From positions 1 through 63,336 of the forward strand of contig CAZHMX010000001.1 in NCBI GenBank assembly GCA_964533725.1: a DNA stretch of 63,336 bases, given 5' to 3'. Below, one piece after another: positions 1 to 33,331 of this stretch. This stretch comes from an uncultured Alistipes sp. (GTDB taxonomy: Bacteria; Bacteroidota; Bacteroidia; Bacteroidales; Rikenellaceae). The first letter of the stretch is position 1, and each line of letters opens with the position of its first letter. Made by a program: the position numbers and the translations under genes. The notes beneath the pieces were generated by a model. It was not told the origin of the DNA. It saw only the letters and a list, made by a program, of their open reading frames with translations, and did no database searches.

Positions 1-2
1 GA

Positions 3-269
3 TTCAAGGTAATTGTAGATGCGAACGGCAATCTGCTTACCGACATGGAACTGCTTGTTAAGTTACGTAACCTCAGACAAACCCTCGCGCAGGAAAACGG
101 GGTGTCCCCCTCTCGCGTTATGTATGATTCCGTATTGGTGCTTTTGGCGACGGACAGGCCGATGACACGTGAAGAATTTATCGACGTAAAAGAAATCACC
201 ATCACGACATACATGCGGTTCGGTGAACGGTTCATTGCCGAAATCAAGAAACACGCCGAAGCATCTTAA
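3..269 (+). CDS. HRDC-domain-containing protein, 3' part (probably starts before the window)
   Basis: Frame is open from the window edge; LLVKLRNLRQTLAQENGVSPSRVMYDSVLVLLATDRP...RFGERFIAEI resembles the HRDC helical domain of RecQ-type proteins. Confidence 0.65.
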   Translation, partial: FKVIVDANGNLLTDMELLVKLRNLRQTLAQENGVSPSRVMYDSVLVLLATDRPMTREEFIDVKEITITTYMRFGERFIAEIKKHAEAS

Positions 270-442
270 TCACAGAAATGTATATCAATCCTTGTGGATG
301 GATTAGAATATATTGAATCTTTATTGCAAGCAGTCGGAGGCTGCATGCGGAACCGATAACGGTTTGTTTGTATGAAATTGTTCGGTTTGTGTGAGAACCT
401 GTTCAAAATCTTGAACGGAACAGTACGCTCGACATAAAACGG

Positions 443-514
443 AAGAAATACGATTTACAACGTTTTGTCAACGCACAGGGATACGACTACATTACGGCAT
501 TGGTCGAGATAGGG
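443..514 (+). pseudogene. Remnant of a DUF1810-family N-terminus
   Basis: Translates KKYDLQRFVNAQGYDYITALVEIG, matching the recalled DUF1810 start (DLxRFxxAQ...YxxALxE); no start codon, and similarity stops abruptly. Confidence 0.5.
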
Positions 515-754
515 GTTTTCTGGATACAGTCGCACCTGAAAATATCATCCCACCTTAAAAAAGAGAATATCCTGCTAAAGGCTATCCGGACACCGGCGGG
601 GCGGATGCCGAAATATTACGGCGGGATTCATTTCATACACTCCCGCCGCCATTTCGTACAGTCGCGGGCAGAACGCGCGGTTGTACGAAAGCTTTTGTTG
701 ATCTTTGTATCATAGGAATCCTCATTTTGAAAGATTGTAAAACGTATAAATAAC

Positions 755-3700
755 ATGAAAAAAAATCTATTTGTCTTTTTGACGGCCATTGTGGCGATGG
801 TCGTGTCTTCGGCCTGCCGCAAGGAGGTGATGAGCGAGCAGGAGGCGACGAGATGGATTGCGGCCTACGCGCCGGAACGCATCAGCGTCAATTTACCCAT
901 ACGCGTTGAATTCACCGACAGGGTAGGGCCATTTTATTCGGACACGCCGCTTGACAAAGTGCTGGAATTCTCTCCCCGGCTGCGCGGAGAAGTGCGGGCG
1001 CCGTCGTGCCGATGTCTCGAATTCGTGCCGCAGACCGGAACGTTGAGGCCGGGACGGGAGTACACCTGCCGCGTGCGGCTTGCCGATCTTACGGGAATCG
1101 ACACGCTGCGTGATTTCAGCTTTACGTTTTTTGTCGCCGAACGTGAGACAAAGATGCAGGTGACGAGTGTCCGGGTCGATCCTGCTGACATCAAATATAT
1201 GCGGGTCGAGGGTTTCCTCATGTTCAGTGAGCCGCTCGAAGCGGATCGGGTCGACCCCAAACTGCTGCATTGCGACCTGCAGGGACGGGCTGCCCATACG
1301 GCGATCGAGCCGACCGAGGATCCGACCCGCTTTCGCTTTACCCTCACGCGCCTGAAACGTGACGAGAAAGAGACGCGGGTACATGTGTCGTTCAATGCCG
1401 AAAAGTTGAATTTCGCGGCACCGGAGCCGCAACTGATTGCCGTTCCGGGTATCCACGAGTTCAAATTGCTCGCGGCCGAGCGTCACGACGCCGCGCAACC
1501 GTATATCGGGCTGGAGTTCAGTGCGCCGCTTTCGGCTGAACAGGAGCTGGACGGACTGATCTCCATCGACCGCCTCGAACGGGTGCGCCTCGAGCGAAGC
1601 GGTACGAACGTGAAGGTCTTTTATGACGCCAAAGGGCTGCCCGATATCGTGCTCCGCATATCGGAACTGTTGCGTGGCAGAGACGGCCAGCTCCTCGGCA
1701 GCGAGGTCGTGCAGCACTTCGAGCAGGAGGTCATTCCGCCGGCCGTGGAGATTCCGCTGAGCGGCACGATCCTGCCCGACAACCGCAATCTGACACTGCC
1801 TTTCCGGGCGGTCAACCTCGCGGCTGTGGACGTCGAGGTCGTGAAAATCTACACCGACAATGTGATGACGCATTTTCAGGAGAACGAATTGCGAGAATCC
1901 TATTACCTGCGCCGTGTGGGACGTCTGATCTACCGCCGCACGGTGCGCCTGGACGACGATCCGAACCGCAATCTGCACGAGTGGCAGAACTTTTCGATCG
2001 ACTTGAAGAATCTGTTTCGGCAGGAGCGCGGTGCGATTTACAACGTCCGTCTGGCATTCCGTCAGGCCTATTCGCTTTACGACCGCACGGAGCAAAACGG
2101 GGAACTGGATTTCCCGCTGACAAATGGCGTGACAGACCGGGAGAACGAGGAGTGGGATGTAACCCGCGGGTACACCCGCCGGAGTGCTCCGGATTGTAAT
2201 TGGGACGATTATGAATGGCGCGAAGAGGACGATCCGTCGAAGCCTTCCTACTATATGTGCAGCAGCCGGATGCCGGAGTACAATTTAGTGGCCTCGAATC
2301 TCGGGTTAATCGTCAAGCGGGCCGACGATGCGCAACTGTGGACGGCGGTGTCGGACCTGATGACCGCCGCGCCGCTGGCCGGCGTGCGCGTGACGGCCTA
2401 CAACTACCAGCTGCAGGAGATCGGGCACGGTACGACGGACAGCAACGGATTCGCCGACTTCCGGGTCAGGAACAAGCCCTTCATCGTTACGGCCTCGAAT
2501 GGCGTCTCGACCAGCTATCTGAAAGTCGGTGACGGGTACGAGAAGTCGTTGAGCAATTTCGATGTCGGAGGCAAAACGAATCCTCAGGGGATCAAGGGTT
2601 TTGTCTATGGCGAGCGCGGTGTATGGCGGCCGGGCGACGAGGTGCACCTGACGCTCATTGTCGAAGACCGCCAGAAGGCATTGCCGGCCAACCATCCCGT
2701 CACGATGGAACTCTACACGCCCCAGGAGCAGCTCTACGAGCGCCGGACGCTGACCCGAAGCACCGACGGGTTCTATGTCTTCCATGTGCAGACGGGCGAG
2801 GATGCCCCGACGGGCCGTTGGAACGCGCGGTTCAAGGTGGGCGGCAAGACGATCGACTTTCCGGTCAAGATCGAGACGATCAAACCCAACCGCATCAAAA
2901 TCGGCATCGAGACCGACGAAATGTTGCAGGCTCCGGGCCATGCCGCCTGCTCCGTCGAGGCGCGCTGGCTGACGGGTCCGGTTGCGGGCAACCTGCCGGC
3001 GTTCCTGGAGCTGATGCTCTACAGCAATGCCAAACCGTTCAAGGAGTTCGGCGACTACCTCTTCTCGAATCCGCTGAACAGCTTCTCCACGGAGCATCTC
3101 GAACTGGCCAGCGGGGTTCTCGACTCGCTGGGACGCATGACCCGACAGATCGAACTGCCCGAAAAGGAGGATGCTCCGGGCATGTTGCAGGCCAACATCA
3201 TCGCGCGGGTCCTCGAGGCGGGCGGCGACGAGAGTTTGGCGGCCCGTAGCGTGCGCTGCTCCCCCTATCGGTCGTATGTGGGCATTCGCCTGGGCAACAA
3301 GGAGTTTGAGACCGACAGCGACCTGACGTTCCCCGTCGTGTGTGTCGATCCCCAAGGCAAGTTGCAGGGCCGGCGAAAGATCGAATACAAGGTCTACAAA
3401 CTCAACTGGAGCTGGTGGTGGGAAGGCTCGGCGGACGACTTGAGCCGTTACGTGCAGAGCACTTCGGCCGAGGTCGTGGCCTCGGGCCGTCTGGAGACCG
3501 CCGGCGGCAGGGCGCAGATTCCGTTCCGGGTCGACTATCCGGACTGGGGCCGATACCTGGTCTTCGTGCGCGACGTGCGGAGCGGCCACGCGACGGGCGG
3601 GGTCGTCCTCCTCGACTGGCCGGAGTGGCGGGGACACGCCGGAAAGGGGGATGCCAAGGCCAGTTCGATGCTCTCCTTCGCCCTCGACAAACGCAGCTAC

Positions 3701-18614: not shown

Positions 18615-19820
18615 CTATTTGATCCGCGTGACCACGGGGCGGCGGAGCGGACGCAACTCTTCGGCTGCCGCTGCGGCCCATTCATCTCCCCAGAAACGGG
18701 CGGGCAGCCAGCTGTTTTTCTGCCACAGCATCACCATACGATAATCCAGACGCCCCTCGGCGTCGGGACGGACAAGAACCAGGTGGCTCAGCGGATCCTC
18801 GACCGGCGCGACGACACGGGCACGGTCGACGGCTACGGCCAGGGTTACCCGCTCGGGCTGCCAGCGGACGGTGTCGTTTTCGGGGTAATCGGTGCCGGTG
18901 GAGCAGAGAATCATCTGTCGTTCGTCGCCCTGCGTGCCGTCATAGGCGCCGTTTTTGATCTTCATCACCCCGGTCACGAAGTCCAGACCCGCGAAATCGC
19001 CCTCAAGGCGGTTCTCGACCTGAACGTCGGCATGGCCGGCATAGAGAATGTAACGCGACGTCATCGTCAGCGTGCGACCGCCATATCGCCACCCCTCGAC
19101 CCGCATGTCGACTACCGTGCGGACCGGTCCCGCCGCGCGTATCGTCGCCTCGCGACGCGACATCTCGGTGATGTGGAGCATCTTCTGCTTTTTTGCATCC
19201 CAGCCCTTCAGCACGCCGACACTGATCGAGCCGAAGACCCGCAGATTGTCGTGTCCCGACCCTTCGGCCAGCTGCCCGTCCGTCGGATACCACATCGTCT
19301 CGCGCAACTCCAGCCCCGGCTGCTTCTTGCCGTAGGTGTCGATACTCTGCTTTTTGTCGAAATAGACGCGATAAGCCGCCCGGTCGGATTCGAACGCGGG
19401 CCCGTGGTGGTGCAGCTTGTGGTACATGTCGTCCTTTTCCGAGCTGACCGTCCGCACCTCCTGCAACGTTTTGTCGGGCTTCTTGAGCCACATCTGCGCG
19501 TTGACTTCGGCCGGATAGCTCACCGCCGGAGCCGCCGACGAATAGACCACGCGTACCTTCGTCCTGCCGCGCCCCCCGAGTACGAAAGCCAGCTCGTCAT
19601 AGCGGCCGTCGCCGTCGAGATCATCCAGTTGCGAGGGGATCTCCACGCGACCGACATATACGCGTGCGCTCTGCGTCCACTCGGGCAGATCGCTGATTAC
19701 AACCCCGTTGTCGGCCGACGAGATCTCGATCCGATAACGGGCCTCACCGCTTTGCGGGTTTTGCGCACCGGCCTGGAAGCCTCCGGCGACCAGGCATAAC
19801 AAAAAGATAAACCGTCTCAT
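18615..19820 (-). CDS. DUF4861-family exported protein
   Basis: Signal peptide; DLDGDGRYDEL, HHGPAFESD.AYRVYFD, GPVRTVV motifs. Confidence 0.75.
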   Translation of the reverse strand: MRRFIFLLCLVAGGFQAGAQNPQSGEARYRIEISSADNGVVISDLPEWTQSARVYVGRVEIPSQLDDLDGDGRYDELAFVLGGRGRTKVRVVYSSAAPAVSYPAEVNAQMWLKKPDKTLQEVRTVSSEKDDMYHKLHHHGPAFESDRAAYRVYFDKKQSIDTYGKKQPGLELRETMWYPTDGQLAEGSGHDNLRVFGSISVGVLKGWDAKKQKMLHITEMSRREATIRAAGPVRTVVDMRVEGWRYGGRTLTMTSRYILYAGHADVQVENRLEGDFAGLDFVTGVMKIKNGAYDGTQGDERQMILCSTGTDYPENDTVRWQPERVTLAVAVDRARVVAPVEDPLSHLVLVRPDAEGRLDYRMVMLWQKNSWLPARFWGDEWAAAAAEELRPLRRPVVTRIK

Positions 19821-21215
19821 TTATTTCAGTTTTTTGATGATTTCCTCCAATGCCTCGGCCGTACGGATCGCCCCCTCGGGCAGCTCACCGCCCAGGGCCT
19901 GCAACGCCTCCGCCGGCACAAGGTCGACCTGCTGTTCGTCGGCTTTCGAGAGATCCAGTCCGAAGACCTGCGCGAAAAATTCGTAGACCGCCCGCCGTTT
20001 GCTGGGCCCGAAGTCATGACGTTCGTCGGCGAAATGGCGGTTCTGCATCCCGTTTTCGGCCCCGTAGAACCCCCAGATCCGTTGCAGGAAGGGGTACTCC
20101 AACCGGGGATAGGTGTGGGTCCAGTCGCCTCCGTCGCTTACGGTCAGCACCGGTTTGGGCGCAAAGGTGGCCAGCAGTTCGGTCGTGCAGCTGCCCCCTG
20201 CCGCCAAGGTGACGGGCCGGGCGCTCTCGCAAGGACAGCCGCCGTCGAAGTGCGATACTAAATGCACCACGGGCGCCAGGGCCGTAAATCGTTCGTCGAA
20301 CAGTCCCAGCAGCATCACATGCGTCGCGCCACCCGATCCTCCGGTTGCCCCGATACGCTCCGTATCGATATCTTTCCGTGTCTTCAGAATCCAATCGGTT
20401 ACCGCCTCGGCCCACAGCGCCTGCACCTGCATCGCGCACGGTGCCCGGTGGAACTCCTCGCCCAGTTGCAACGCCGACTCGCCCCAGGCAAAGATATCGA
20501 CGTCGACGGCCACAATCCCCATCCGCGCCATCGAGGCCATCAGGTACTGATGATCCGCACGGTACCGTCCCTCGGCCCAGTGTCCCGATGGCGCCACCAC
20601 CATCGGATGTCGTCCGCGTCCTCCCGCAGGTGCGTAGATCGACCCGCAGGCATAGAGTCCCGGGAGCGTCTCGAGGGCGAAATTCCGGATCGTGTAGCCG
20701 TCGTGACGCGCGATAGGGGTCAGAATGACCTTCGGATCGGCCACCAGTCCGCGCAGATAGGGGTCGATATCGAAGAGTGCGCGGGCCTGCCGGCGCAACG
20801 TGTCGCGCCGTTGCTCCCACTGCGCGCGATCGTTGTATTGTGCCGAGAGCCACTCCAAAAGTGCCTCCCCTTCGGCGGGCGTACGGCGGTAATACTCATA
20901 AGGTTCGATCCGATAATGCCGTTTGCCCCGGTCGCTCCATTTGAGGTCGAGCGGCCGGCAGATCCCGTCGAGCGAAGCCTCCACCGACCAGGGCCGGATC
21001 CGGAAATCGGCATAATCCAGAAAGAGGGTGTCGGGATCGATGGCCCGCGGCGTGATCCTGACGCCGAACCGTTCGCCGACCTCTCGCATCACCTGCCCCA
21101 ACGATTTGCGGAATCTTGTTTCGAGCGTTTGCGCATGCGCCGCATAGCCCGCCGCTCCGAAGACCGCAACCGCCAGAAGCAGCAACATCCTCCCGTGTTT
21201 CAATATCTTTCTCAT
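19821..21215 (-). CDS. Acetylxylan-esterase-like alpha/beta hydrolase
   Basis: Start MRKILKHG; nucleophile elbow GGSGG; GGCPCES; HDFGPSKR. Confidence 0.8.
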   Translation of the reverse strand: MRKILKHGRMLLLLAVAVFGAAGYAAHAQTLETRFRKSLGQVMREVGERFGVRITPRAIDPDTLFLDYADFRIRPWSVEASLDGICRPLDLKWSDRGKRHYRIEPYEYYRRTPAEGEALLEWLSAQYNDRAQWEQRRDTLRRQARALFDIDPYLRGLVADPKVILTPIARHDGYTIRNFALETLPGLYACGSIYAPAGGRGRHPMVVAPSGHWAEGRYRADHQYLMASMARMGIVAVDVDIFAWGESALQLGEEFHRAPCAMQVQALWAEAVTDWILKTRKDIDTERIGATGGSGGATHVMLLGLFDERFTALAPVVHLVSHFDGGCPCESARPVTLAAGGSCTTELLATFAPKPVLTVSDGGDWTHTYPRLEYPFLQRIWGFYGAENGMQNRHFADERHDFGPSKRRAVYEFFAQVFGLDLSKADEQQVDLVPAEALQALGGELPEGAIRTAEALEEIIKKLK

Positions 21216-21488
21216 CGTGTAAATTCTTTGGTAGTTTGCTGCGAAGTTACAAAATAATCGCGAATTTTCATACGTCGAGACACGTAAAAGCGAAAAAGCC
21301 TGAACCGCGCAACTACTCGCAGTATGGAGCCGGACTGACGTTCGAACATTATATGACGAAGTACAAGCCCCCTTCGTGTACAAAGACAGCAACAATCCTT
21401 CCGCACCCCAAATATTCGGTTTTTAATGAAAATTGCCCGATGATCAGTCCTTCCGACCAGTTTCACGGCCCTGAAGGAGTGGTAGGAG

Positions 21489-22703
21489 GGTGTATTTATT
21501 TGTGTTCTACATCAAACCACAACTGAACCGGATCGCAATATCGGACGGAAGTGTTGTATTTTATTTGTGTTCTACATCAAACCACAACGAATTTTATTTC
21601 AATGCAGAGCCTTTTGTGTTGTATTTTATTTGTGTTCTACATCAAACCACAACGACTTCGGTTTCACAAACGACCCTACCGCGGTTGTATTTTATTTGTG
21701 TTCTACATCAAACCACAACGAATTTTATTTTAACGCGGAACCATTTGTCGTTGTATTTTATTTGTGTTCTACATCAAACCACAACTAACGGCGTAAGTCG
21801 GCATATCGTGTACGGTTGTATTTTATTTGTGTTCTACATCAAACCACAACTATGAGCGGTATTAAAGCGGTCGGTGCATTGTTGTATTTTATTTGTGTTC
21901 TACATCAAACCACAACTTTTGTTGCCTATGTTGATATTGTCCGTAAGTTGTATTTTATTTGTGTTCTACATCAAACCACAACATACCACTGTTTACCTGG
22001 TTTGTTACCAGTGTTGTATTTTATTTGTGTTCTACATCAAACCACAACAAACAAGGTTGTATTGTAAGATGGGATTTGTTGTATTTTATTTGTGTTCTAC
22101 ATCAAACCACAACAAACAAGGTTGTATTGTAAGATGGGATTTGTTGTATTTTATTTGTGTTCTACATCAAACCACAACTCCGTGATCACTCGTCCCTCCT
22201 GTCCATATGTTGTATTTTATTTGTGTTCTACATCAAACCACAACAGAAAACGCCAACACATAATGAAAGGCGTGGGTTGTATTTTATTTGTGTTCTACAT
22301 CAAACCACAACTTACGTATAAAGTAGATTTCCTCGATGTAGTTGTATTTTATTTGTGTTCTACATCAAACCACAACAATCCTGCTCTCGCTATGTCCGGC
22401 GGTGCGTTGTATTTTATTTGTGTTCTACATCAAACCACAACCATGAAAATCATACGAACTCCATGGATTAGTTGTATTTTATTTGTGTTCTACATCAAAC
22501 CACAACAGCACCCAGACGCCCGATCAGTTGTACTTTGTTGTATTTTATTTGTGTTCTACATCAAACCACAACTATCAAAGTTGCCAGGGAACAGGACGGC
22601 AAGTTGTATTTTATTTGTGTTCTACATCAAACCACAACCGGCCATGACGGCGACCATGGCGAAGAGTGTTGTATTTTATTTGTGTTCTACATCAAACCAC
22701 AAC
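21489..22703 (-). CRISPR. Type II-C CRISPR array: 19 repeats (36 bp), 18 spacers (29-31 bp)
   Basis: Repeat GTTGTGGTTTGATGTAGAACACAAATAAAATACAAC (minus strand); degenerate terminal repeat at 21489-21523; leader on the cas2 side. Confidence 0.98.
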
Positions 22704-22839
22704 CTCCGGGCTTTGAAAGTGTTGATTGTTTGTGAATTGCGAGGTTAAACCGTCGCAAAAAAATCAACTGGCACACTCCGGGGAAGTCGATTTGATGCAG
22801 ATTTTGCATTTTTGCAAGCACCTGTCTCATTTCAAAGAA

Positions 22840-22870
22840 CAAAGGTAATAAAAAAATCACCGAATGCAAA
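22840..22870 (-). promoter_or_regulatory. CRISPR leader promoter
   Basis: Minus strand TTTG-N19-TACCTTTG pointing into the array. Confidence 0.8.
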
Positions 22871-23061
22871 TTTTTACTATCGGACCTTGCTACGGTTTCG
22901 TTACACCGAGCGCGAGATCGAATTTGCTTCTGCTGTGCCGAGGCGAGAAAACGGCAGTGGTAAAAAGAACAACAGACCGCGACCCGTATAGGCATAATAT
23001 GCGATATGATCCATATTTATAAAAATCAAACAGTTGCCGCAGCAATTCATGAACTGTTCCA

Positions 23062-23400
23062 TTAAAAAAGTTCCAGTTGTTGCGGTGCCATCGGAGCGGC
23101 TCTTTCAACTTTGCCCCAGAAATTCATTATTTCGCCGTACTGCTTGTCTGTTACGCTCAAAATACTCGTGTAGCCTGTCGGCGGCATCGACTTTCGCACA
23201 CGTTTGATATGTACCTCCCGATTCTCTTTCGACGGGCAGTGGCGAACGTAGACGGAGTATTGCATCATGGTGAATCCGTCTTTTTCCAGCGCCTTTCGGA
23301 ATTGTGCGGCATGGCGTCGCTCGACTTTGGTCGTGGTCGGCAGGTCGAAAAACACAAAAAGCCACATAATCCGGTATGCGTTGAGGCGAATTTCCGACAT
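23062..23400 (-). CDS. cas2: CRISPR-associated endonuclease Cas2
   Basis: MSEIRLNAYRIMWLFVFFDLP...GFTMMQYSVY...TDKQY. Confidence 0.95.
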   Translation of the reverse strand: MSEIRLNAYRIMWLFVFFDLPTTTKVERRHAAQFRKALEKDGFTMMQYSVYVRHCPSKENREVHIKRVRKSMPPTGYTSILSVTDKQYGEIMNFWGKVERAAPMAPQQLELF

Positions 23401-23402
23401 GG

Positions 23403-24290
23403 TTATTCGAGCGACGGATAAACGATCTTTTTCTGTGTTCCGGCAAAACATTTGGCCAGCGAAGCTGTCGTCTGGGTCAGTCCTACATCGAGAGGTCGAG
23501 TAACCTTGCCGAATACGGCATCGACGAACAACAGGCCGAGCAGTTTCGCCTTCACCTCTTTGGTCAGCACCCGTTCGCCCCCGGCATACAATCCGAAGAC
23601 TATTTCGTCCACATACGGGCGGAATGGCTCCATGATATCGTCCGCCAGCGGGAATGCGTTGTAGCGGTTGCGGTGAAAAATCCCGAATGCCGGAAACAGC
23701 CCTGACCCCATAAGCGACCGCGCGACCGCGGCCCGCAGCAGCGTGTAGCCGTAATTCAGGAGGTTGTTGGGTTCGACGCCGTCGCGCGAACGGATGAATC
23801 CGCTGCCGAAAAGTTCCGACCAGTATATTTTGGCGGCTATACCCTCGCGATTGTCCGTGTCGCCGCTCTTGACGTTGGAATAATAGGGTTTCAGTTTGTT
23901 CCCGTCTTTACCGAGTTTGTTTAGCAGTGCCGCCTGATTGCGGATCTTCGCTTCGATGGTCTGTTTCCACAACCCCTTTTTCAACGGTTCGCTGGCTTCA
24001 GTCTGCGCACGGTAACTTTCGCCTTGCGTTTTGTTGGAATCGAGGTTCATCAACATGGCGTTGGGCATAAAGTCCTTGCCGCACAGAATCACCGCAACAT
24101 TATTGTCTGACAGTGCGTTCAGCAACGGCAGGGTGACAGACGTCTGCTGGTGTTCGAGTACAACGAAACCGATATCCTCTATCGGTATGCTTTTCTGCAT
24201 GTCGGGCATCTCCTTCGTGTGGATAATCATTTGATTGTCTCGAAGTTTCAAGCAGTAAGGCGTCGAGAAAAACAGTGCTCTTTTCAACAT
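23403..24290 (-). CDS. cas1: Type II Cas1
   Basis: IPIEDIG, NREGIAAKIYW, LNYGY, GIFH, ADDIMEPFRP motifs. Confidence 0.96.
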   Translation of the reverse strand: MLKRALFFSTPYCLKLRDNQMIIHTKEMPDMQKSIPIEDIGFVVLEHQQTSVTLPLLNALSDNNVAVILCGKDFMPNAMLMNLDSNKTQGESYRAQTEASEPLKKGLWKQTIEAKIRNQAALLNKLGKDGNKLKPYYSNVKSGDTDNREGIAAKIYWSELFGSGFIRSRDGVEPNNLLNYGYTLLRAAVARSLMGSGLFPAFGIFHRNRYNAFPLADDIMEPFRPYVDEIVFGLYAGGERVLTKEVKAKLLGLLFVDAVFGKVTRPLDVGLTQTTASLAKCFAGTQKKIVYPSLE

Positions 24291-24296
24291 GGCGCG

Positions 24297-27200
24297 TCAG
24301 TGTTTAAAGATGATCTCGCCGGTAACCGTTAGTTCGAAATCGTAACCTTCGACGTAGGCGTTTATATTAGAAATGCTTAATCTTAATTTAGCCGGTGGAT
24401 TATTAACGTCTATTTGCGATATACCCTTACCACATTCGGCTTTAATGGCATCGTCGCTACGGGCATCTTGGTGAAATATAAACTGAATACGTCCCTCATT
24501 TGCCATCGCTTTCACCTTGTACAAACGTTTTGCCAGTTCTTTTTTTGAACATTCATATAACTCTTCCGGCGAATTTTCGTAGAACAACACCATCGTTCCC
24601 GTGCGCAGGATGCACTTGAGCGGATTGTCGTTTGCGTCGGACAGCGGAACGAGGTGGTCCGTTCCGCTCTTGCCGTTGAAGTATCGGGCGGCCTCGAGGT
24701 TGTTGATCAACTTGAACGACCGCACGGGCTTTCCCTTTGCATTGGTGCCCTCGTATATGGCCATGCAGTAGTTGCTGTCGTTGACTACATGATAGCTGCG
24801 TTTGTACTCGAAACGGGATTCATCGCGATGTTTCTTCAGCTTGATCGGCTGTGTGATACCCGGCGCGAAGATGCGCACCTTTTTTATATATACACCCTTC
24901 TCGGCATTGAAACAGATCGGTTGGGATACCGCTTTCTTGAAACCGTCGCGTTCGATAGCCGCCTTGACACACTCGCGAACGGCTTTATCTACAATTTTGT
25001 CCACATCGGTTTCTTTAAATTTATCTGCGAGCAATTTGCGAATGACATACTTGACCTCGTCGTTGTGTTTTATCGCCCCGTAAAAATTTTCCTTATGTAG
25101 CATGCCACGTGCCGTATCTCCCTGCGTATATTCCACTTCGCCGCATTCGTTGCGCTTGATTTTCCCCCGTGTACGTAATTTTTTTCGGCTCTGTTTCGGC
25201 ATATTGTCCGCCGTGTGGTGGGAGACGAGCAGTTCGTCCGCGATCGACTTTACATCCTCGGTGAACGTCGGCCACGGTTTGGGGAAATGGGGGCGTTTAC
25301 CCGATTCCGTCCTTTCGTAGTGCTCGGTCTCGGCGACGAAATCTTTCCAGCTTTTATAGGTATTGCCGTCGATGCAGGCGATCGTCACGGCATCTATACA
25401 GTGATGGACGTGGTTCACGCGATTTTTCTTCTCGTACTCCGCCTGCAATCCCCACGCCTTGCGCAGATCTGCGGTCGTCGCGCCTTTGACGATGTAGATG
25501 TTGCTGAACACGGTTTTTAGATACAGCCGGGCATAACGTCCGATGATCCCGATGTCTACCCCCTGGCGGTTGCTGAATCCTTCGGGGACCTCCGTCATCG
25601 TGAAACGGTTGTATTTGCCCTCCCAATAGTCCAGCTCCATTTGCAACCTGTGCCGCTTCTGAATCTCCTGGTCCTTTTTCTCTTTGGTGGAGAAATTGCC
25701 TTTGGTCCTGCTTATTTGTACCCTTAGATCCTCTATTTTCTTCTTCCAACCGAAAGAGGTCTCGATCCGCTCCATGATTTCCTGGTGGTTGGCCAGTTCC
25801 GAGGGCAGTTTGGCGCCTTTGACCTCGCGGTTGAAATGGGCGTCGCACAACGTTTTGTTCATCTGCGAATTGTCGCCGCCTCGCGAGCGCGGAACCGTGT
25901 GCTCGATGTCGAACTGCGGCGACGCGCCAAGAAAATCGCGGATCTCGATTTCTTTGCCAGTGTAAGAACAGAGGCTGATCTTTTTGCCGGTGTAAGGACA
26001 AATGTGCTTTTGTTCCACCCAGAGTTGGTATTTCAGGATATCATCTTCGGTCGGCTCCGCCCCTCCGCCGTATTGTTTGTAATATTCACATATCTCTTCT
26101 TTGTATTTCAGACGCTTCTTATCGTTGTCACGCTGCCATGCCTCTATGGCACGACGCATGTTGGCCGTGTTCAATTCGCGGGCGAACTCGATGTTTACCT
26201 TCGTGTTTTCGTCGATCCGACCCTCTTTCAACAGCCGGTTGACCAAAGCGCGCAGACGGAACAAGGCGCGCATGACCATCGGGTTGCGGACCGATGACGT
26301 AAACGGCAGCCCGAGTTGTCGTATTCCATCCTGGTCGGGCTGGGCAACCTTGTAGGTCTCGATCATCGACGGATGATAGAGTTTGCGGCTGTCGATCTGT
26401 TCGTCGGTCAGTCCGCAATCCCGCAGGCATTCGCCTATCGCCCGCTCTTTTGTGTCGAATTTATCGTAGGGGTTGCGTCTGTAGTTCGCAATCGTATCGG
26501 TGACGCTCGCTTCGATCTCGGCTCTGCGCACTTCGTCGTTCCATACCTCTTTCGGTACGACCGCCGGCAGATTGGCCAGGAATACGGCCTCGTCATAGCG
26601 GCGACCTTGCCGCAAGTGGGGCAGTATTTTGTCTATGGCGTTAAGGCTCAATGCGGCATAACTTTGCGGCATGCGGATCTTGACAAATTCGTCGGCTTGT
26701 TTGTCGGTCAGTTGCAGATTGCATTTTGCCCATTCGCGCAATTTCTCGTCGTCGCTGAATGAAAACAGGGCATGCCATACGTCGTTTACGATCTGCGCTT
26801 CGGTCTTGCCGTCGCCTTTCAGGTAAAGGCTGTGAATCTCTGTTTGCCAGTCGTCGTCGAAAACAGTTTTCAGAGCGGCTGTGACGGGGCAACCTGCAAC
26901 CGATTGCGACATGCAGAAATTAAACCGGTACGGAGCCTCGCTGCGGTCGTCCCGGTAGGCGTAGCTGCCCTTTTTCCCGCCGGCCAACTTCTTGGCTATA
27001 TCCTCGAAGGTGAAATTGCCCTTGCTCTTGCGGTAAAACAGCGGCAGAATCTTCTCGACTTCGGCCTCGGTGAGCGGACGTTCTTCGGGGTCGAGCTGCG
27101 TTTTTATCCGGATGTTGTTGATGAATGACCGCATACGGAACTCCTCGAACCGCGGGTGCGAAATCGGACACCTTGCCTTTTTCTTCTCGAACGTACATCT

Positions 27201-27968
27201 TCCGACCGATCCTTTCTGCGATTTGAGCGGACGCTGGAAGAATATCGCTTTGTACAGGGTCCGGCGCAACTCCTCCCGCAGATTTTGCTTTTCGCAAATG
27301 GCCTGGAACTCCGCCTCGTAATGCTCCTTGCGGGCGGTGTATTGTGTCCGTATCTTTTTGTTTTCGTGATACAGCCTGTAAAAATATTCGCCCAGATAGT
27401 TGCATCCGCATGCCTTCATCTCCGCAGTCAGCTGGCCGATGGAGCTCTTGACTTTGCCGTTCTCTTCGTCTTCTGCCGTCTCTTTGCGGTTGCTCAAGAA
27501 ACCGCGCCGTTGTGCCAAATGATAGAGCGCCCGGCCGAGCAGATGGCGGTCCTGCCGGTTCGACATATCGAGCGTTGTCGTAAGGACCGTATTGCGGTCG
27601 TGATAGGGGTTTTTGTCCTTGTTGTCGTCGGTGCGCTGCCAAAGTAGAAACTCTTCCGTGGCCGGATATCGTTTTTCGTATCTCCACGCGTCTAACTGTT
27701 CGGTTGTCAGACTGGGACACATATCGTTGGCCGCAAGGACTTTAAGCAACTCGATCTTCCGCAGGCGGCGACGGAAATAGTGGCGGCGTGAGGCGCGTGC
27801 CTCGGTGCGGGTCTTTACCGTCGGTTCTTCTCCCTTTTGGGTGCGGTTCACCCCTTCCTGAAATATATCGACGCCCCGGTCTACCAGTTTGTAGCCTTCC
27901 TCTGTCCGTTCGGTAATTGCCCAACCCAATGAATTTGTACCCAGATCCAGTCCTAAAATCTTTGCCAT
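24297..27968 (-). CDS. cas9: Type II-C Cas9 (1223 aa)
   Basis: RuvC-I LGLDLGTNS; Arg-rich bridge helix; RuvC-II NIEFARE; HNH DIEHTVP...NKTLC; RuvC-III HHCIDA; no csn2 or cas4 in the locus. Confidence 0.97.
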   Translation of the reverse strand: MAKILGLDLGTNSLGWAITERTEEGYKLVDRGVDIFQEGVNRTQKGEEPTVKTRTEARASRRHYFRRRLRKIELLKVLAANDMCPSLTTEQLDAWRYEKRYPATEEFLLWQRTDDNKDKNPYHDRNTVLTTTLDMSNRQDRHLLGRALYHLAQRRGFLSNRKETAEDEENGKVKSSIGQLTAEMKACGCNYLGEYFYRLYHENKKIRTQYTARKEHYEAEFQAICEKQNLREELRRTLYKAIFFQRPLKSQKGSVGRCTFEKKKARCPISHPRFEEFRMRSFINNIRIKTQLDPEERPLTEAEVEKILPLFYRKSKGNFTFEDIAKKLAGGKKGSYAYRDDRSEAPYRFNFCMSQSVAGCPVTAALKTVFDDDWQTEIHSLYLKGDGKTEAQIVNDVWHALFSFSDDEKLREWAKCNLQLTDKQADEFVKIRMPQSYAALSLNAIDKILPHLRQGRRYDEAVFLANLPAVVPKEVWNDEVRRAEIEASVTDTIANYRRNPYDKFDTKERAIGECLRDCGLTDEQIDSRKLYHPSMIETYKVAQPDQDGIRQLGLPFTSSVRNPMVMRALFRLRALVNRLLKEGRIDENTKVNIEFARELNTANMRRAIEAWQRDNDKKRLKYKEEICEYYKQYGGGAEPTEDDILKYQLWVEQKHICPYTGKKISLCSYTGKEIEIRDFLGASPQFDIEHTVPRSRGGDNSQMNKTLCDAHFNREVKGAKLPSELANHQEIMERIETSFGWKKKIEDLRVQISRTKGNFSTKEKKDQEIQKRHRLQMELDYWEGKYNRFTMTEVPEGFSNRQGVDIGIIGRYARLYLKTVFSNIYIVKGATTADLRKAWGLQAEYEKKNRVNHVHHCIDAVTIACIDGNTYKSWKDFVAETEHYERTESGKRPHFPKPWPTFTEDVKSIADELLVSHHTADNMPKQSRKKLRTRGKIKRNECGEVEYTQGDTARGMLHKENFYGAIKHNDEVKYVIRKLLADKFKETDVDKIVDKAVRECVKAAIERDGFKKAVSQPICFNAEKGVYIKKVRIFAPGITQPIKLKKHRDESRFEYKRSYHVVNDSNYCMAIYEGTNAKGKPVRSFKLINNLEAARYFNGKSGTDHLVPLSDANDNPLKCILRTGTMVLFYENSPEELYECSKKELAKRLYKVKAMANEGRIQFIFHQDARSDDAIKAECGKGISQIDVNNPPAKLRLSISNINAYVEGYDFELTVTGEIIFKH

Positions 27969-28010
27969 AAGCTTGCTTTTCTGTAAATTTCCGTAAATTT
28001 AATGAAAAAG

Positions 28011-28041
28011 TTTGTAATGTGGCAAAAAAACACTACTTTTG
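28011..28041 (+). promoter_or_regulatory. tracrRNA promoter
   Basis: TTTG-N19-TACTTTTG. Confidence 0.8.
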
Positions 28042-28045
28042 TTGC

Positions 28046-28134
28046 GTAAGTATTCTACATCTTACCACAATAAGGCTATATGCCGAAGGTTGAAGAACCT
28101 TTCTCCCCCGCGTACTCCGTGGGGGAATTTTTTT
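28046..28134 (+). ncRNA. tracrRNA (5' end approximate)
   Basis: Anti-repeat TTCTACATC-TTA-CCACAAT pairs with repeat GTTGTGG-TTT-GATGTAGAA; nexus AAGGCTATATGCC; hairpin AGGTT/AACCT; terminator CCCCCGCG/CGTGGGGG plus T-tract. Confidence 0.88.
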
Positions 28135-28326
28135 GTGGTCAACCGCCCCGGTCGTCGCGATACCGGTGCTGTGCCCGGGCCATGCGGGGCGTAATCCCCT
28201 CGCAATAGAGGCTTTAGCGGTCGAACGGCTGATTTTCTGCCGATTTTCCGGTTGCGGTGAAAGTTTTTTTTGAATTGCGGACGATTTGCGTTATCTTTGC
28301 AGATTGCTTGAAGAAATGTTTTCGAA

Positions 28327-29766
28327 ATGGCTAAAGAGAACCGAATTGTCAACGAAATAGAGGACAACGAGTATAAATACGGTTTCCAAACCGAGATTGA
28401 AACCGATGTCATTCGCAAGGGACTGGACGAAGAGATCGTCCGGCTGATTTCGGCCAAAAAGGAGGAACCCGAGTGGATGACCCAAATGCGCGTGAAGGCC
28501 TTCCGCCACTGGCTGACGCTCGAGCCGCCGACGTGGGCCCATCTGGATATTCCGCCCATCGACTTTCAGGATATCATCTACTACGCCGCTCCGCGCCGCA
28601 AAAAGCTCGGATCGATGGACGAGGTGGATCCCGAACTCAAACGGACGTTCGACAAACTGGGCATTCCGCTCGAGGAGCAGATGGCGCTGGCGGGCGTGGC
28701 GGTCGATGCGGTGATGGACTCCGTGTCGGTCAAGACCACCTTCCGCGAGACGCTGGCCGAGCGGGGAATCATCTTCTGCTCGATCTCCGAGGCAATCAAG
28801 GAGCATCCCGAGCTGATCAAAAAATATCTGGGACGGGTCGTGCCCTACACCGACAACTATTACGCCGCGCTGAATGCCGCGGTCTTCTCCGACGGTTCGT
28901 TCTGCTACATTCCCAAGGGCGTGCGCTGCCCGATGGAGCTGTCGACCTATTTCCGCATCAATGCGGCGGGTACGGGACAGTTCGAACGCACGCTGATTGT
29001 GGCGGACGAGGGGGCCTACGTCAGCTATCTGGAGGGTTGCACGGCCCCGATGCGCGATGAGAACCAGCTGCATGCGGCGGTGGTGGAGATCGTGGTCGAG
29101 CGGGATGCCGAGGTGAAGTATTCGACGGTCCAGAACTGGTACCCGGGCGACAGGGAGGGCCGCGGCGGCATCTACAATTTCGTCACCAAACGGGGGCTTT
29201 GCCGCGAGCGGGCGCACCTGTCGTGGACGCAGGTGGAGACGGGCTCGGCCATCACGTGGAAATACCCGAGCTGCGTGCTGCAGGGCGACGGTTCGTCGGG
29301 CGAATTTTATTCGGTGGCGATGACCAACCATTTCCAGCAGGCCGATACCGGTACGAAGATGATCCACTTGGGGCGCAATACCCGCAGCCGGATCGTTTCG
29401 AAGGGTATTTCGGCGGGCCGGAGCCAGAACAGCTACCGCGGTCTGGTGCGTGTGGCTGCGGCGGCCGAGAATGCGCGCAACTACTCGCAGTGCGACTCGC
29501 TTTTGATCGGCGACCGTTGCGGCGCCCACACCTTCCCGGTGGTCGATTGCGCGAATCCTGCGGCGGTGCTCGAGCACGAGGCCACGACCTCGAAGATCTC
29601 CGAGGAGCAGCTCTTCTACTGCAACCAGCGGGGTCTCTCGACCGAAGATGCCGTGGGGCTGATCGTCAACGGTTACGCCCGCGAGGTGCTGAACAAGTTG
29701 CCGATGGAGTTCGCCGTCGAGGCGCAGAAACTGCTGGCCCTGCAACTGGAGGGTTCGGTCGGATAG
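28327..29766 (+). CDS. sufB: Fe-S cluster assembly protein SufB
   Basis: [27 protein letters not shown] motifs. Confidence 0.97.
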
Positions 29767-29794
29767 CATTATGTATATAATCTGTTAACGCGAT

Positions 29795-30547
29795 ATGTTA
29801 AGTATAAAAAATCTGCACGCCTCGGTCGAGGGCAAAGAGATTCTCCGGGGTATTGACCTTGAGGTCAAGGCCGGTGAGGTTCACGCCATTATGGGCCCTA
29901 ACGGCTCGGGCAAGTCGACATTGGCGTCGGTGCTGGCAGGCAACGAGAAATTTACGGTGACCGAGGGTTCCGCAACCTTCGGGGGGCAGGATCTTCTGGC
30001 GATGAAGATCGAGGACCGTGCCCGTGCGGGACTGTTTTTGGGATTCCAGTATCCGGTGGAGATTCCGGGGGTGACGATGGCCAACTTCATGAAGATCGCC
30101 GTCAACGAACAGCGCAAGTTCCGCGGCGAGGAGCCCCTCTCGGCGGCGCAGTTCCTGAAGCTCATGCGCGAGAAGAGCGCCGTGGTGGAGCTGGATTCGA
30201 AACTCACCTCGCGGGCCGTCAACGAGGGTTTCTCGGGCGGCGAGAAGAAGAAGAACGAGATCTTCCAGATGGCGATGCTCGACCCGAAATTAGCCATCCT
30301 GGACGAGACGGACTCGGGCCTCGACATCGACGCCCTGCGTATTGTGGCCACGGGCGTAAGCCGCCTGCACCGCGCGGATAACGCCACGGTGGTGATCACC
30401 CACTACCAGCGTCTGCTGGACTATATCGTCCCCGACTACGTCCACGTGCTGTACCGCGGACGGATCATTTACTCGGGCGACAAGTCGCTGGCGCTCAAAC
30501 TCGAACGTGAGGGATACGATTGGCTGATCAACGATTATAAGGAGTAG
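29795..30547 (+). CDS. sufC: Fe-S assembly ATPase SufC
   Basis: GPNGSGKS, FSGGEKK, LDETDSGLDID. Confidence 0.97.
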   Translation: MLSIKNLHASVEGKEILRGIDLEVKAGEVHAIMGPNGSGKSTLASVLAGNEKFTVTEGSATFGGQDLLAMKIEDRARAGLFLGFQYPVEIPGVTMANFMKIAVNEQRKFRGEEPLSAAQFLKLMREKSAVVELDSKLTSRAVNEGFSGGEKKKNEIFQMAMLDPKLAILDETDSGLDIDALRIVATGVSRLHRADNATVVITHYQRLLDYIVPDYVHVLYRGRIIYSGDKSLALKLEREGYDWLINDYKE

Positions 30548-30549
30548 GG

Positions 30550-31374
30550 ATGAGAGACGATTCAGCGATAAACACGGCCCTTTATGCCGAGCCGGCGGAC
30601 GATCGGCTGACCGTTGCCGACGGGACGTCGGAGGTACGCCCGTATCGGGTCACCGACCCCGGGACGCTGACGGTCGAGGTCGGCCGCGACGCCTCCGTGG
30701 AGCTTGTGGTGCTTTACCGCACGCCGGGCTGCACGAAGTTGTCTGTCCGGTTGGCCGAAGGGGCGCAGCTGCGCATGGTCGAGTGCTTTTGCGCGGCGCG
30801 ACAGACGGACAGCGAGATCCGGCAGGCGGCCCGAAGCCTTTGCCGCAGTCAGGTGCTGCAACTGACGGATTGCGTGTGGCAGTGCCGCGTAGCGCTTGAG
30901 GGTGCCCGCGCCGAGAGCCATATCGACGGCCTCTTTCTGCTGGCCGGCGGGGAGCATTCGCGTTGCGATCTGCGGGTCGACCACTGTGCGGCCGACTGCA
31001 CGAGCCGTTCGCTCGTCAAGGGCGTGGCTACGGATCGGGCGCGGGGCGAATTCGCGGGGCTGGTCTATGTGGCGCAGGATGCGCAGCGCACCGACGCCCG
31101 GCAGAGCAGCCGCAATATCGTCCTGTCGCCCGAGGCACGGATCCACACCGAGCCGCAGCTGGAGATCTATGCCGACGACGTGAAGTGTTCGCACGGCGCG
31201 ACGGTGGGGCAGCTGGACGGCGAGCAGATCTATTACATGCGTCAGCGCGGCCTGGACGAGCGCGTGGCGCGGCGCCTGCAATTGGAGGGTTTTGCCTCGG
31301 AGGTGGCCTGTCCGGTGGAGTCCTTCCGCGAGGAGGCCGATCGGTCGGTAGCCCGTAAACTGGAACGGATTTAG
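30550..31374 (+). CDS. sufD: SufD (short form)
   Basis: PQLEIYADDVKCSHGATVG; operon position. Confidence 0.9.
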   Translation: MRDDSAINTALYAEPADDRLTVADGTSEVRPYRVTDPGTLTVEVGRDASVELVVLYRTPGCTKLSVRLAEGAQLRMVECFCAARQTDSEIRQAARSLCRSQVLQLTDCVWQCRVALEGARAESHIDGLFLLAGGEHSRCDLRVDHCAADCTSRSLVKGVATDRARGEFAGLVYVAQDAQRTDARQSSRNIVLSPEARIHTEPQLEIYADDVKCSHGATVGQLDGEQIYYMRQRGLDERVARRLQLEGFASEVACPVESFREEADRSVARKLERI

Positions 31375-31384
31375 CTTTTGCGAA

Positions 31385-32611
31385 ATGAAGCGACCATTTG
31401 ATATTCAGGCCGTTCGTGCCGATTTTCCGATCCTGGAACAAGAGGTTTACGGCCGTCCGCTCGTCTATCTCGACAGCGGCGCCACGGCACAGAAACCTCG
31501 CGCGGTGATCGAACGGACCAACGCCCTTTACTGCGCGCTGAACGCCAATGTCCACCGCGGGGTCCACTATCTTTCGGAGCAGATGACCGAGGTCTACGAG
31601 CAGGCGCGCGAACGGGTACGCCGATTTATCGGAGCCTCGTCACGCGAGGAGGTGATCTTTACGGCGGGCGCCACGGCGTCGCTCAATACGGTGGCCTATG
31701 CGTGGTGCGAGCGGTTCCTGAACTGCGGCGACAACATCGTCGTGAGCGAACTGGAACACCACTCCAATCTGGTGCCCTGGCAGTTGGCTGCAGGCCGCAA
31801 AGGGGCGTCGATCCGCAAACTGCCCATCGACGGGCAGGGCGCGTTGCAACTGGACCGGTTGGACGATCTGATCGACAGCCGCACCCGTCTGGTGGCCGTT
31901 ACGCAGGCCTCCAATACGCTGGGCACGCGTCCCGACCTTGAACGGATCATCCGCCGTGCGCATGACGCGGGGGCGGCCGTGGTGGTCGACGGTTGCCAGG
32001 GTGTGGTGCATGGCGGCGTGAATGTCAGCGAGCTGGGTTGCGATTTTTATGCCTTCTCGGGCCACAAACTTTACGGTCCTACGGGGATCGGCGTGTTGTA
32101 CGGCCGCCGCGAATGGCTCGAGGAGATGCCGCCGTTTTTGAGCGGTGGCGATATGGTCGACCGGGTTTCGTTCGAGCGGACGACCTTTGCGCCCCTGCCT
32201 CTGAAATTCGAGGCCGGCACGTCGAATTTCGTCGGCGCCGCGGGGCTGGGCGAGGCCATCGCGTGGTTAGAGCAGTTCGAGGCGGGCGATATCGAACGCC
32301 ACGAGGCCGATTTGCTGGCCTATGCCACCGAAAGACTTCAGGCGATCAAAGGGTTGCGCATCTACGGCACGACGCCCGGCAAATGCGCGATCCTGTCGTT
32401 CAATATCGCGGGCGCGCACCCTTACGACGTGGGGATGATCCTCGACAAGTTGGGCGTGGCGATCCGCACGGGACAGCACTGCGCCGAACCGGTGATGACG
32501 CATTATGGTGTCGACGGGATGTGCCGCGCGTCGCTGGCCCTCTACAACGAGCGACGCGAAATCGACCTCCTGGCGGCGGGTCTCGAGCGGGCGTCGAGAA
32601 TGCTTATATAA
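31385..32611 (+). CDS. sufS: Cysteine desulfurase
   Basis: YLDSGAT, EHHSN, SGHK (PLP lysine), RTGQHCA. Confidence 0.95.
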   Translation: MKRPFDIQAVRADFPILEQEVYGRPLVYLDSGATAQKPRAVIERTNALYCALNANVHRGVHYLSEQMTEVYEQARERVRRFIGASSREEVIFTAGATASLNTVAYAWCERFLNCGDNIVVSELEHHSNLVPWQLAAGRKGASIRKLPIDGQGALQLDRLDDLIDSRTRLVAVTQASNTLGTRPDLERIIRRAHDAGAAVVVDGCQGVVHGGVNVSELGCDFYAFSGHKLYGPTGIGVLYGRREWLEEMPPFLSGGDMVDRVSFERTTFAPLPLKFEAGTSNFVGAAGLGEAIAWLEQFEAGDIERHEADLLAYATERLQAIKGLRIYGTTPGKCAILSFNIAGAHPYDVGMILDKLGVAIRTGQHCAEPVMTHYGVDGMCRASLALYNERREIDLLAAGLERASRMLI

Positions 32612-32635
32612 CTGAAAACAAGGAGGAACCGAGAT

Positions 32636-33331
32636 ATGTTGATCGTTTTGGAAGGTTTGGACGGTGCAGGCAAGTCGACGCAGATCGAACGCCTTCGCGC
32701 CTGCTTCGAGGCCCGCGGGCTGAAGACCGAATACCTGCATTTTCCGCGCTTCGATGCGCCGGTATACGGCGATATGATCGCCCGTTTCCTGCGCGGTGAA
32801 CTGGGTGCGGTCGATGTGGTCAATCCCTATGTCGTTGCGTTGCTGTTTGCCGGCGACCGGGCCGATGCCGCCGCGACGATCCGCCGCTGGATGGAGCAGG
32901 GCAGGGTAGTGATCCTGGACCGCTACGTCTATTCCAATATCGCCTATCAATGTTCGAAACTGGTTGAGGTAGAGGAGATCAACGCGCTGAAAGAGTGGAT
33001 ATTGCAGACCGAGTACGAGCATTTCGCCATTCCGCGCCCCGATCTTTCGCTCTTTCTGGACGTTCCGATCGGCTTTGTGGAGCGCAAACTCCGCGAACAG
33101 CGTGCCGGCGACGACCGCGAATACCTGCACGGGGCGCAGGATATCCACGAAGCCTCCATCGAGCTGCAACGCCGTGTCCGCCGGACCTATTTGGATGCAG
33201 CGCTCGGGGACGAGACTTTACGCGTTGTGGATTGTGCTGATGCAAAGGGAGATATGGCTTCGCCCGATGAAATTTTTGCGCGGATTGCCGCCTGTGTGGC
33301 GCCGCTCATGGAAAACACGCCGGACCGATGA
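32636..33331 (+). CDS. tmk: Thymidylate kinase
   Basis: EGLDGAGKST, DRY motifs. Confidence 0.93.
   Translation: MLIVLEGLDGAGKSTQIERLRACFEARGLKTEYLHFPRFDAPVYGDMIARFLRGELGAVDVVNPYVVALLFAGDRADAAATIRRWMEQGRVVILDRYVYSNIAYQCSKLVEVEEINALKEWILQTEYEHFAIPRPDLSLFLDVPIGFVERKLREQRAGDDREYLHGAQDIHEASIELQRRVRRTYLDAALGDETLRVVDCADAKGDMASPDEIFARIAACVAPLMENTPDR

What the first reader, a model, noticed from the sequence alone, without database searches (positions are those of the whole stretch)
21589..22405. Spacers tile a microvirus capsid motif and a pilot-protein motif: repeated ssDNA phage encounters
Seen: spacer 2 ends TTTTGT and spacer 7 (21917-21946) begins TTTTGT; joined they read EFYFNAEPFVAYVDIVR(N/K). 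Spacer 14 (22377-22405) reads NPALAMSGGA. Recalled: Bacteroidetes-infecting Microviridae VP1 carries NAxPxxAYxDIxxNYY, and pilot protein VP2 carries AGLNPAL. Inference: at least 4 of 18 spacers, from old to recent positions, target microviruses, giving a host link.
Basis: partly seen in the sequence, partly recalled or inferred. Interest (0 to 1): 0.7.

Follow-up and report, generated by a model that had tools for sequence, protein, structure and literature searches.

The report
Alistipes CRISPR array records microvirus attacks
An ordinary CRISPR-Cas9 array of a gut bacterium (likely Alistipes) holds six spacers that likely come from small single-stranded-DNA phages (microviruses), a kind of host link already reported; the one unusual trait is that five of the six fall in two tight spots of the capsid gene.

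Summary
The array (18 spacers, 17 unique) belongs to a type II-C cas9-cas1-cas2 locus of a likely Alistipes genome. A capsid (VP1) profile built without spacers 2, 4 and 7 places them at columns 155, 155 and 163, the register their 6-nt overlap predicts (p 0.004, 0.004, 0.001). The overlap alone is weak (17% by chance). Spacer 14 matches a microvirus pilot gene at 26/29 nt. Two further spacers, 1 and 11, hit a second VP1 site in the proposed 'Family 4', on opposite strands 53 nt apart. So 6 of 17 unique spacers are microviral, likely from at least two virus groups; spacer 3 targets a tailed-phage terminase. No exact protospacer was found, so adjacency of spacers 2 and 7 in one genome is inferred. 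CRISPR-based Alistipes-microvirus links, Family 4 included, are already published. What remains interesting is the clustering: one site was captured twice from two synonymous variants, with a third spacer 23 nt away. This fits Cas9-primed acquisition or retention of spacers on conserved motifs.

The parts
21488..22703 (-). CRISPR array: 18 exact 36-nt repeats plus a degenerate trailer repeat at the left end; 18 spacers of 29-31 nt; likely transcribed from the minus strand, so spacer 1 is oldest and 18 newest
   Evidence: orientation inferred from the degenerate repeat, the position of cas2 and the tracrRNA
21524..21552 (+). spacer 1: microvirus VP1 motif NRIAISDGS (Family 4-like)
   Evidence: top blastn hit is VP1 of PQ007004, 23/25 nt, E 0.07; peptide p 0.0033 on 186 proteins not chosen with it
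21589..21617 (+). spacer 2: VP1 motif EFYFNAEPF
   Evidence: profile column 155, p 0.004
21654..21683 (+). spacer 3: tailed-phage large terminase motif DFGFTNDPTA (not microviral)
   Evidence: 13 terminase records; 59 IMG/VR loci for a degenerate pattern, best 2 mismatches
21720..21749 (+). spacer 4: same VP1 site as spacer 2, from a variant with 5 synonymous differences
   Evidence: 24/29 identical, same left end; profile column 155, p 0.004; blastn alone gave only chance hits
21917..21946 (+). spacer 7: VP1 motif FVAYVDIVR, in register directly after spacers 2/4
   Evidence: profile column 163, p 0.001; the 7 blastn hits covering 80% or more are all microvirus VP1, though E is only 0.6-8
22179..22208 (-). 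spacer 11: its reverse complement reads VP1 peptide YGQEGRVIT, about 17 codons after the spacer 1 site, opposite strand
   Evidence: 24/30 nt to PQ007004; 4 VP1 proteins carry both spacer 1 and spacer 11 peptides exactly; p 0.0033; blastn alone gave only chance hits
22377..22405 (+). spacer 14: microvirus DNA pilot protein (VP2) motif NPALAMSGG
   Evidence: 26/29 nt, 3 synonymous changes, to PQ006936, E 0.01; two more VP2 hits
22704..23061 (-). likely leader between the array and cas2
   Evidence: position only; A+T 55-59% in a 60% GC genome
23062..23451 (-). cas2 (true start may lie further in)
   Evidence: TIGR01573, 60 bits
23403..24290 (-). cas1, type II-C (NMENI) form
   Evidence: TIGR03639, 286 bits
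24297..27968 (-). cas9, 1223 aa, RuvC and HNH motifs present
   Evidence: TIGR01865, 457 bits; translation shows LGLDLG, NIEFARE, IEHTVP, HHCIDA
28041..28134 (+). predicted tracrRNA: anti-repeat, hairpins and T-run, divergent from cas9
   Evidence: anti-repeat 28053-28070; co-fold with the minus-strand repeat; no Rfam hit in 19000-30000

Best explanation
This is the CRISPR array of a type II-C cas9-cas1-cas2 locus in a likely Alistipes genome, and six of its 17 unique spacers were likely captured from at least two groups of gut microviruses. Shown: the locus anatomy, and the matches of spacers 1, 2, 4, 7, 11 to capsid (VP1) and 14 to pilot (VP2) sequences. Inferred from how type II systems work: Cas1-Cas2 with Cas9 sampled the double-stranded replicative form (spacers 1 and 11 face opposite strands), likely at an N4CC-type PAM, and the guides would direct Cas9 to cut that form. 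Spacers 1 and 11 likely come from one Family 4-like virus. Spacers 2, 4 and 7 come from unidentified relatives that differ at synonymous sites. The tight clustering is most likely Cas9-primed acquisition next to an earlier cut, amplified by retention and detection of spacers on conserved motifs; this last step is the weakest.
For: Locus. Host: the six best SufC relatives (85-92%) are all Alistipes MAGs (80 kept of 597). Unguided blastn of single spacers against 50,697 phage records put microvirus VP1/VP2 first for spacers 1, 7 and 14. Profile register 155/155/163. Four VP1 proteins of the 120 listed hold both the spacer 1 and the spacer 11 peptide exactly. PQ007004 VP1 is 44-46% identical over about 690 aa to MG945396 and MG945515, which PMC9239249 Table S1 lists as Family 4 with CRISPR-predicted Alistipes host. 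17 of 375 congeneric genomes match the microvirus capsid family phrog_514, 15 strongly. PAM side: spacers 2 and 4 share their left end. Positions 5-6 beyond that end are CC for spacers 3, 11 and 14 (background CC about 5%); B. fragilis II-C targets have C at position 6 (PMC9367070 passage). Clustering: same site twice plus a third within 30 nt has p of 0.0002 or less to 0.05 under uniform PAM sampling, by assumed number of spacers.
Against: No exact or 1-mismatch protospacer for any microviral spacer in IMG/VR, JGI metagenomes or GTDB patterns or in the protein searches. The best DNA matches have 3-6 mismatches, beyond usual host-prediction cut-offs. Spacers 2, 4 and 7 were not significant against single sequences; spacers 4 and 11 gave only chance blastn hits. 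The motifs hit are conserved across families, so the exact virus is not pinned down. The PAM is read from relatives and forced by conserved Gly/Pro codons; spacer 1's flank (TCATTT, TCATGT, TCATTC) does not fit it, and spacer 7's fits only at position 5. The clustering test is post hoc, and conserved sites are the only ones detectable. None of 16 congeneric prophage VP1s falls in the spacer 1/11 clade (quick tree; the careful tree did not finish).
Confidence: 0.88

Rival explanations
1. The microviral origin is right, but the clustering has nothing to do with priming: spacers were acquired independently, and those on invariant capsid motifs were kept by selection and are the only ones a database search can still recognise.
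For: All six hit conserved motifs. A large survey reports over-representation of spacers on conserved genes (10.1101/2025.06.12.659409, passages). Two VP1 spacers within 53 nt has p about 0.05 alone. Spacers 2 and 4 differ at five consecutive wobble positions, which suggests divergent strains and not stepwise escape. Ten unique spacers are unassigned and could come from variable parts of the same viruses.
Against: VP1 has many conserved motifs, yet three spacers sit within 53 nt and two share an identical PAM-side end. Even if all 17 spacers came from one virus, p is 0.01-0.05. For the spacer 1/11 clade, VP1 relatives at 70-76% identity were in hand, and no further spacer matched.
Confidence: 0.45
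2. The spacers were taken from microvirus DNA that does not productively infect this bacterium: either the cas locus moved in by horizontal transfer with its old spacers, or phage DNA entered a non-host cell. The array then gives no host link for this Alistipes.
For: Only 8 of 375 congeners carry a related repeat, none identical, and no spacer is shared with their 117 unique spacers. No microvirus prophage in the own genome, which is 82% complete. Non-host targeting is reported in 10.1101/2025.06.12.659409 (abstract passage).
Against: Microviral spacers span positions 1 to 14 of 18, so acquisition was repeated over time. The spacer 1/11 group is related to Family 4 phages independently CRISPR-linked to Alistipes.
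Confidence: 0.1
3. The peptide matches are chance, or come from a non-microviral element.
For: Individual blastn E-values are weak (0.01-8). The end overlap arises in 17% of shuffles. No exact target was found.
Against: Six spacers point to the same virus family by separate tests, with a predicted register and exact 9-residue matches; the same screen called 1 of 117 unique spacers in congeneric arrays.
Confidence: 0.03

Closest known systems
CRISPR-predicted Alistipes microviruses, proposed Families 4, 15, 18 (Kirchberger et al. 2022, PMC9239249; seen: passages, Table S4 whole, 30 of 33 Rikenellaceae rows of Table S1)
   Same: Same kind of evidence (host spacers matching microvirus genomes), same host genus. 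The spacer 1/11 target group is 44-46% identical in VP1 to two Family 4 genomes listed with Alistipes.
   Different: Here the targets are not in any searched collection (3-6 mismatches at best). The virus behind spacers 2/4/7 cannot be placed: its motif resembles Dulem virus 200 and Family 4-associated VP1s, and less so Family 18. The best match for spacer 14 (PQ006936) has a VP1 only about 26% identical to the Family 4-associated and Family 18 references tested.
Type II-C CRISPR-Cas9 of Bacteroidota (B. fragilis, PMC9367070; F. columnare, PMC8092290; passages seen)
   Same: cas9-cas1-cas2 with no csn2 or cas4 between cas2 and the array, a 36-nt repeat, 29-31-nt spacers and a predicted tracrRNA; a C-containing PAM around position 6 as in B. 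fragilis; a B. fragilis host-MGE network also contains a microvirus.
   Different: About a third of the unique spacers are microviral here, against 1 of 117 in congeneric arrays with a related repeat (the reference set was built around this array, so the contrast is inflated).
Primed adaptation in type II systems (described in PMC8265633 and PMC8092290 passages; the primary papers PMC6546363 and PMC7558852 were not held)
   Same: Later spacers lie near an earlier protospacer, on either strand.
   Different: Those cases concern dsDNA phages and distances of hundreds to thousands of bases; here the target is an ssDNA phage and the distances are 0, 23 and 53 nt. This is a single natural array with no experiment.

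Membership tests
Type II-C CRISPR-Cas | cas9, cas1 and cas2 in one operon with no csn2 or cas4 | tested here: met
   TIGR01865, TIGR03639, TIGR01573 adjacent; no other cas gene between cas2 and the array; no second cas1 or cas9 in the genome
Type II-C CRISPR-Cas | tracrRNA with an anti-repeat | tested here: met
   anti-repeat at 28053-28070 and co-fold; predicted only, no Rfam hit
Type II-C CRISPR-Cas | active interference and acquisition | not testable with these tools
   catalytic motifs are present; activity not measured
Microviridae as target (spacers 2, 4, 7) | protospacer lies in the VP1 major capsid family (PF02305 / phrog_514) | tested here: met
   independent profile, columns 155/155/163, p 0.004/0.004/0.001; not significant against single sequences
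Microviridae as target (spacers 1, 11) | protospacer lies in VP1 | tested here: met
   exact 9-residue matches in four VP1 proteins; DNA 23/29 and 24/30 on PQ007004
Microviridae as target (spacer 14) | protospacer lies in the VP2 pilot gene | tested here: met
   26/29 nt in the annotated DNA pilot protein of PQ006936, phrog_8689
Microviridae as target | 0-1 mismatch protospacer in a complete 4-7 kb VP1-VP2-VP4 genome (usual host-link standard) | tested here: not met
   none found; best is 3 mismatches
Proposed microvirus Family 4 (spacers 1, 11) | protein-sharing network membership at 30% identity or more | tested here: inconclusive
   only VP1 of the nearest relative was compared: 44-46% to two Family 4 members; the paper's network was not rerun
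Primed adaptation | new spacers enriched near an existing protospacer, dependent on Cas9 cleavage | tested here: inconclusive
   clustering p of 0.0002 or less to 0.05, post hoc; dependence on Cas9 not testable

The most novel reading that the evidence does not exclude
The array is a natural record of Cas9-primed adaptation by a type II-C system against single-stranded-DNA phages. After spacer 2, a relative differing only at wobble positions was re-sampled at exactly the same PAM (spacer 4) and then 23 nt away (spacer 7); spacer 1 likewise primed spacer 11 on the opposite strand. Priming would then act within tens of bases of the cut on a microvirus replicative form, and spacers 2/4/7 would define a still unsequenced Alistipes microvirus lineage.
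Probability: 0.35. Interest if true: 0.55.

Novelty: new member of a known kind. Interest (0 to 1): 0.3.

Why it matters
Bacteroidota microviruses are abundant in gut viromes but almost uncultured; PMC13064476 (passages seen) describes its 2025 isolate as the first. Each host link helps direct isolation. This array adds one more Alistipes link for a Family 4-like clade and predicts an unsequenced virus with a defined capsid motif. The link itself is of a known kind. If the clustering is priming, it would extend type II-C priming to ssDNA phages; two paper searches listed no such study, but they cover only the open-access library.

Tried and rejected
Exact or degenerate pattern scans found no target: spacer 7 in IMG/VR; the spacer 2/4 motif in IMG/VR, JGI metagenomes and 400 family genomes; a wider VP1 motif in IMG/VR, GTDB and metagenomes; the spacer 11 motif in IMG/VR. 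The search for related loci with two VP1 queries found nothing in IMG/VR. A word search with a motif alignment gave 11 VP1 hits among 19 candidates, none the target. A full HMMER scan of 1.84 billion representatives gave 99 hits, none with the spacer peptides. Their tally of offset 8 (74 of 99) is circular and was not used. The profile p-value for spacer 1 is circular too; one search was used. Spacer 6 (MSGIKAVGA) resembles the VP1 start of PQ006936 but is not significant (p 0.43, 0.17), so it was not counted. Spacer 12 scored p 0.006 and 0.06 in different frames and places, so it was not counted. A coding-strand bias (RNA targeting) was considered and dropped when spacer 11 proved to face the other way. 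No self-targeting at up to 6 mismatches and no microvirus genes in the own genome. Spacers 5, 8, 9/10, 13 and 15-18 stay unassigned. No sequencing run was listed. No earlier findings were listed. The capsid tree is the quick version only.

Full report
Locus. The region is a CRISPR array of 18 exact 36-nt repeats plus a degenerate copy at the left end, giving 18 spacers of 29-31 nt; spacers 9 and 10 are identical. To its right, on the minus strand, lie cas2, cas1 (II-C form) and a 1223-aa cas9 with RuvC and HNH motifs present. A predicted tracrRNA lies upstream of cas9 on the plus strand: anti-repeat at 28053-28070, then hairpins and a T-run. It pairs with the minus-strand repeat, so crRNA likely comes from the minus strand, spacer 1 is oldest, and the PAM side of each spacer is its left end as written. 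The six best SufC relatives among the 80 kept are Alistipes MAGs at 85-92%, so the host is likely Alistipes.

The observation. Spacer 2 ends and spacer 7 begins with the same six bases, and the peptides are as stated. An end overlap of six or more bases occurred in 17% of 2000 shuffles of the 17 unique spacers, so it is not evidence alone. I built a VP1 profile from 42 non-redundant of 159 capsids that were not chosen with these spacers. It placed spacers 2 and 4 at column 155 and spacer 7 at column 163, the offset of 8 residues that the overlap predicts, with p 0.004, 0.004 and 0.001 against 1000 shuffles each. Dulem virus 200 shows the same register directly (ARYFNAHPILAYYDIVRNY). Against single sequences the three spacers were not significant (p 0.33, 0.54, 0.22). 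In blastn of spacer 7 against 50,697 phage records, all 7 hits covering 80% or more were microvirus VP1, at weak E-values of 0.6-8; spacer 4 gave only chance hits. Spacer 14 matches the pilot gene of PQ006936 at 26 of 29 bases with three synonymous changes, E 0.01; without the records it selected, its peptide p is 0.027.

Two more spacers. Spacer 1 reads NRIAISDGS. It matched VP1 proteins fetched for other reasons (p 0.0033 on 186 proteins not chosen with it), and its top blastn hit is VP1 of PQ007004 (23/25, E 0.07). On that genome spacer 11 matches the opposite strand at 24 of 30 bases, 53 nt further on. Four of the 120 VP1 relatives listed carry both peptides exactly. Spacer 11 alone gave only chance blastn hits. 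So 6 of 17 unique spacers are microviral. Spacer 3 hits a conserved terminase motif of tailed phages. Spacers 6 and 12 gave hints that did not pass, and the rest are unassigned.

What was not found. No exact target exists in the collections scanned, nor a protein with the spacer 2/4/7 peptides. The own genome (82% complete) has no microvirus genes and no self-targets.

Which viruses. PQ007004 VP1 is 44-46% identical to MG945396 and MG945515. PMC9239249 Table S1 lists both as Family 4 with a CRISPR-predicted Alistipes host, and lists Alistipes for Families 3, 15 and 18 as well. In a quick tree of 53 capsids this clade is separate from all 16 congeneric prophage capsids included. 17 of 375 congeners match phrog_514, 15 strongly; some of these may be binned viral contigs, not prophages. 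The spacer 2/4/7 motif differs from the same site in PQ007004, so a second virus group is likely. It cannot be placed.

Mechanism. Shown: the locus and the matches. Inferred from established type II biology: acquisition from, and cutting of, the double-stranded replicative form; spacers on both strands agree with this. PAM: positions 5-6 beyond the PAM-side end are CC for spacer 14 (3 records), spacer 11 and spacer 3 (C in 53 and 51 of 55 loci), against a background of about 5%. These flanks come from relatives and are fixed by conserved Gly or Pro codons. Spacer 7 fits at position 5 only and spacer 1 does not fit. N4CC is therefore a prediction, in line with the C at position 6 reported for B. 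fragilis II-C.

Clustering. Spacers 2 and 4 start at the same base and differ at positions 12, 15, 18, 21 and 24 from the PAM side, all wobble positions; spacer 7 starts 23 nt away. Under uniform sampling of PAM sites on real microvirus genomes, the same site twice plus a third within 30 nt has p of 0.0002 or less for 3 spacers and 0.01-0.05 if all 17 came from one virus; two VP1 spacers within 53 nt has p 0.05. The test is post hoc. Priming from Cas9-cut ends is described for II-A and suggested for II-C (passages of PMC8265633 and PMC8092290). Preferential retention of spacers on conserved genes is also reported, and detection favours conserved motifs. I cannot separate these and rate them about equally.

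Comparison with congeners. 8 of 375 genomes carry a related repeat. The same screen called 1 of their 117 unique spacers, against 6 of 17 here, with none shared. The reference set was built around this array, so the contrast is inflated.

Verdict. It is a new instance of a known kind of host link in an ordinary II-C system. The clustered, repeated capture of the same capsid sites is the only feature that might interest a specialist.

Noticed in passing
L001 (MT838156.1) 1-5623: A record filed as 'Bacteriophage sp.' looks like a bacterial fragment: ORFs resembling RtcB and MnmE (names recalled, not from a call) and the edge of a related CRISPR array at 5521-5623.
   Followed up: partly
window 21851-21880: Spacer 6 reads MSGIKAVGA, like the VP1 start of PQ006936 (MYSSMKTVGAL). 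Not significant, but it could be a seventh microviral spacer.
   Followed up: yes
window 22049-22142: Spacers 9 and 10 are identical: a repeat-spacer duplication or an assembly artefact.
   Followed up: no
L006-L025 (G-handle genomes): 15 of 375 congeneric genomes carry strong microvirus capsid matches that fall in several deep clades; 16 capsids were put in the tree, G387 giving two.
   Followed up: partly
L218 (G277:C5), spacer 10: A congeneric array has one spacer reading VTLVPIVDY that matches VP1 profile column 406.
   Followed up: no
window 22507-22536: Spacer 16 has a 19/20-nt partial match on own contig C2 (E 0.007) but more than 6 mismatches over its full length; likely chance.
   Followed up: partly
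window 28327-33331: The cas locus abuts a suf gene cluster (sufC, sufD, sufS by NCBIfam) followed by a thymidylate kinase-like gene.
   Followed up: no
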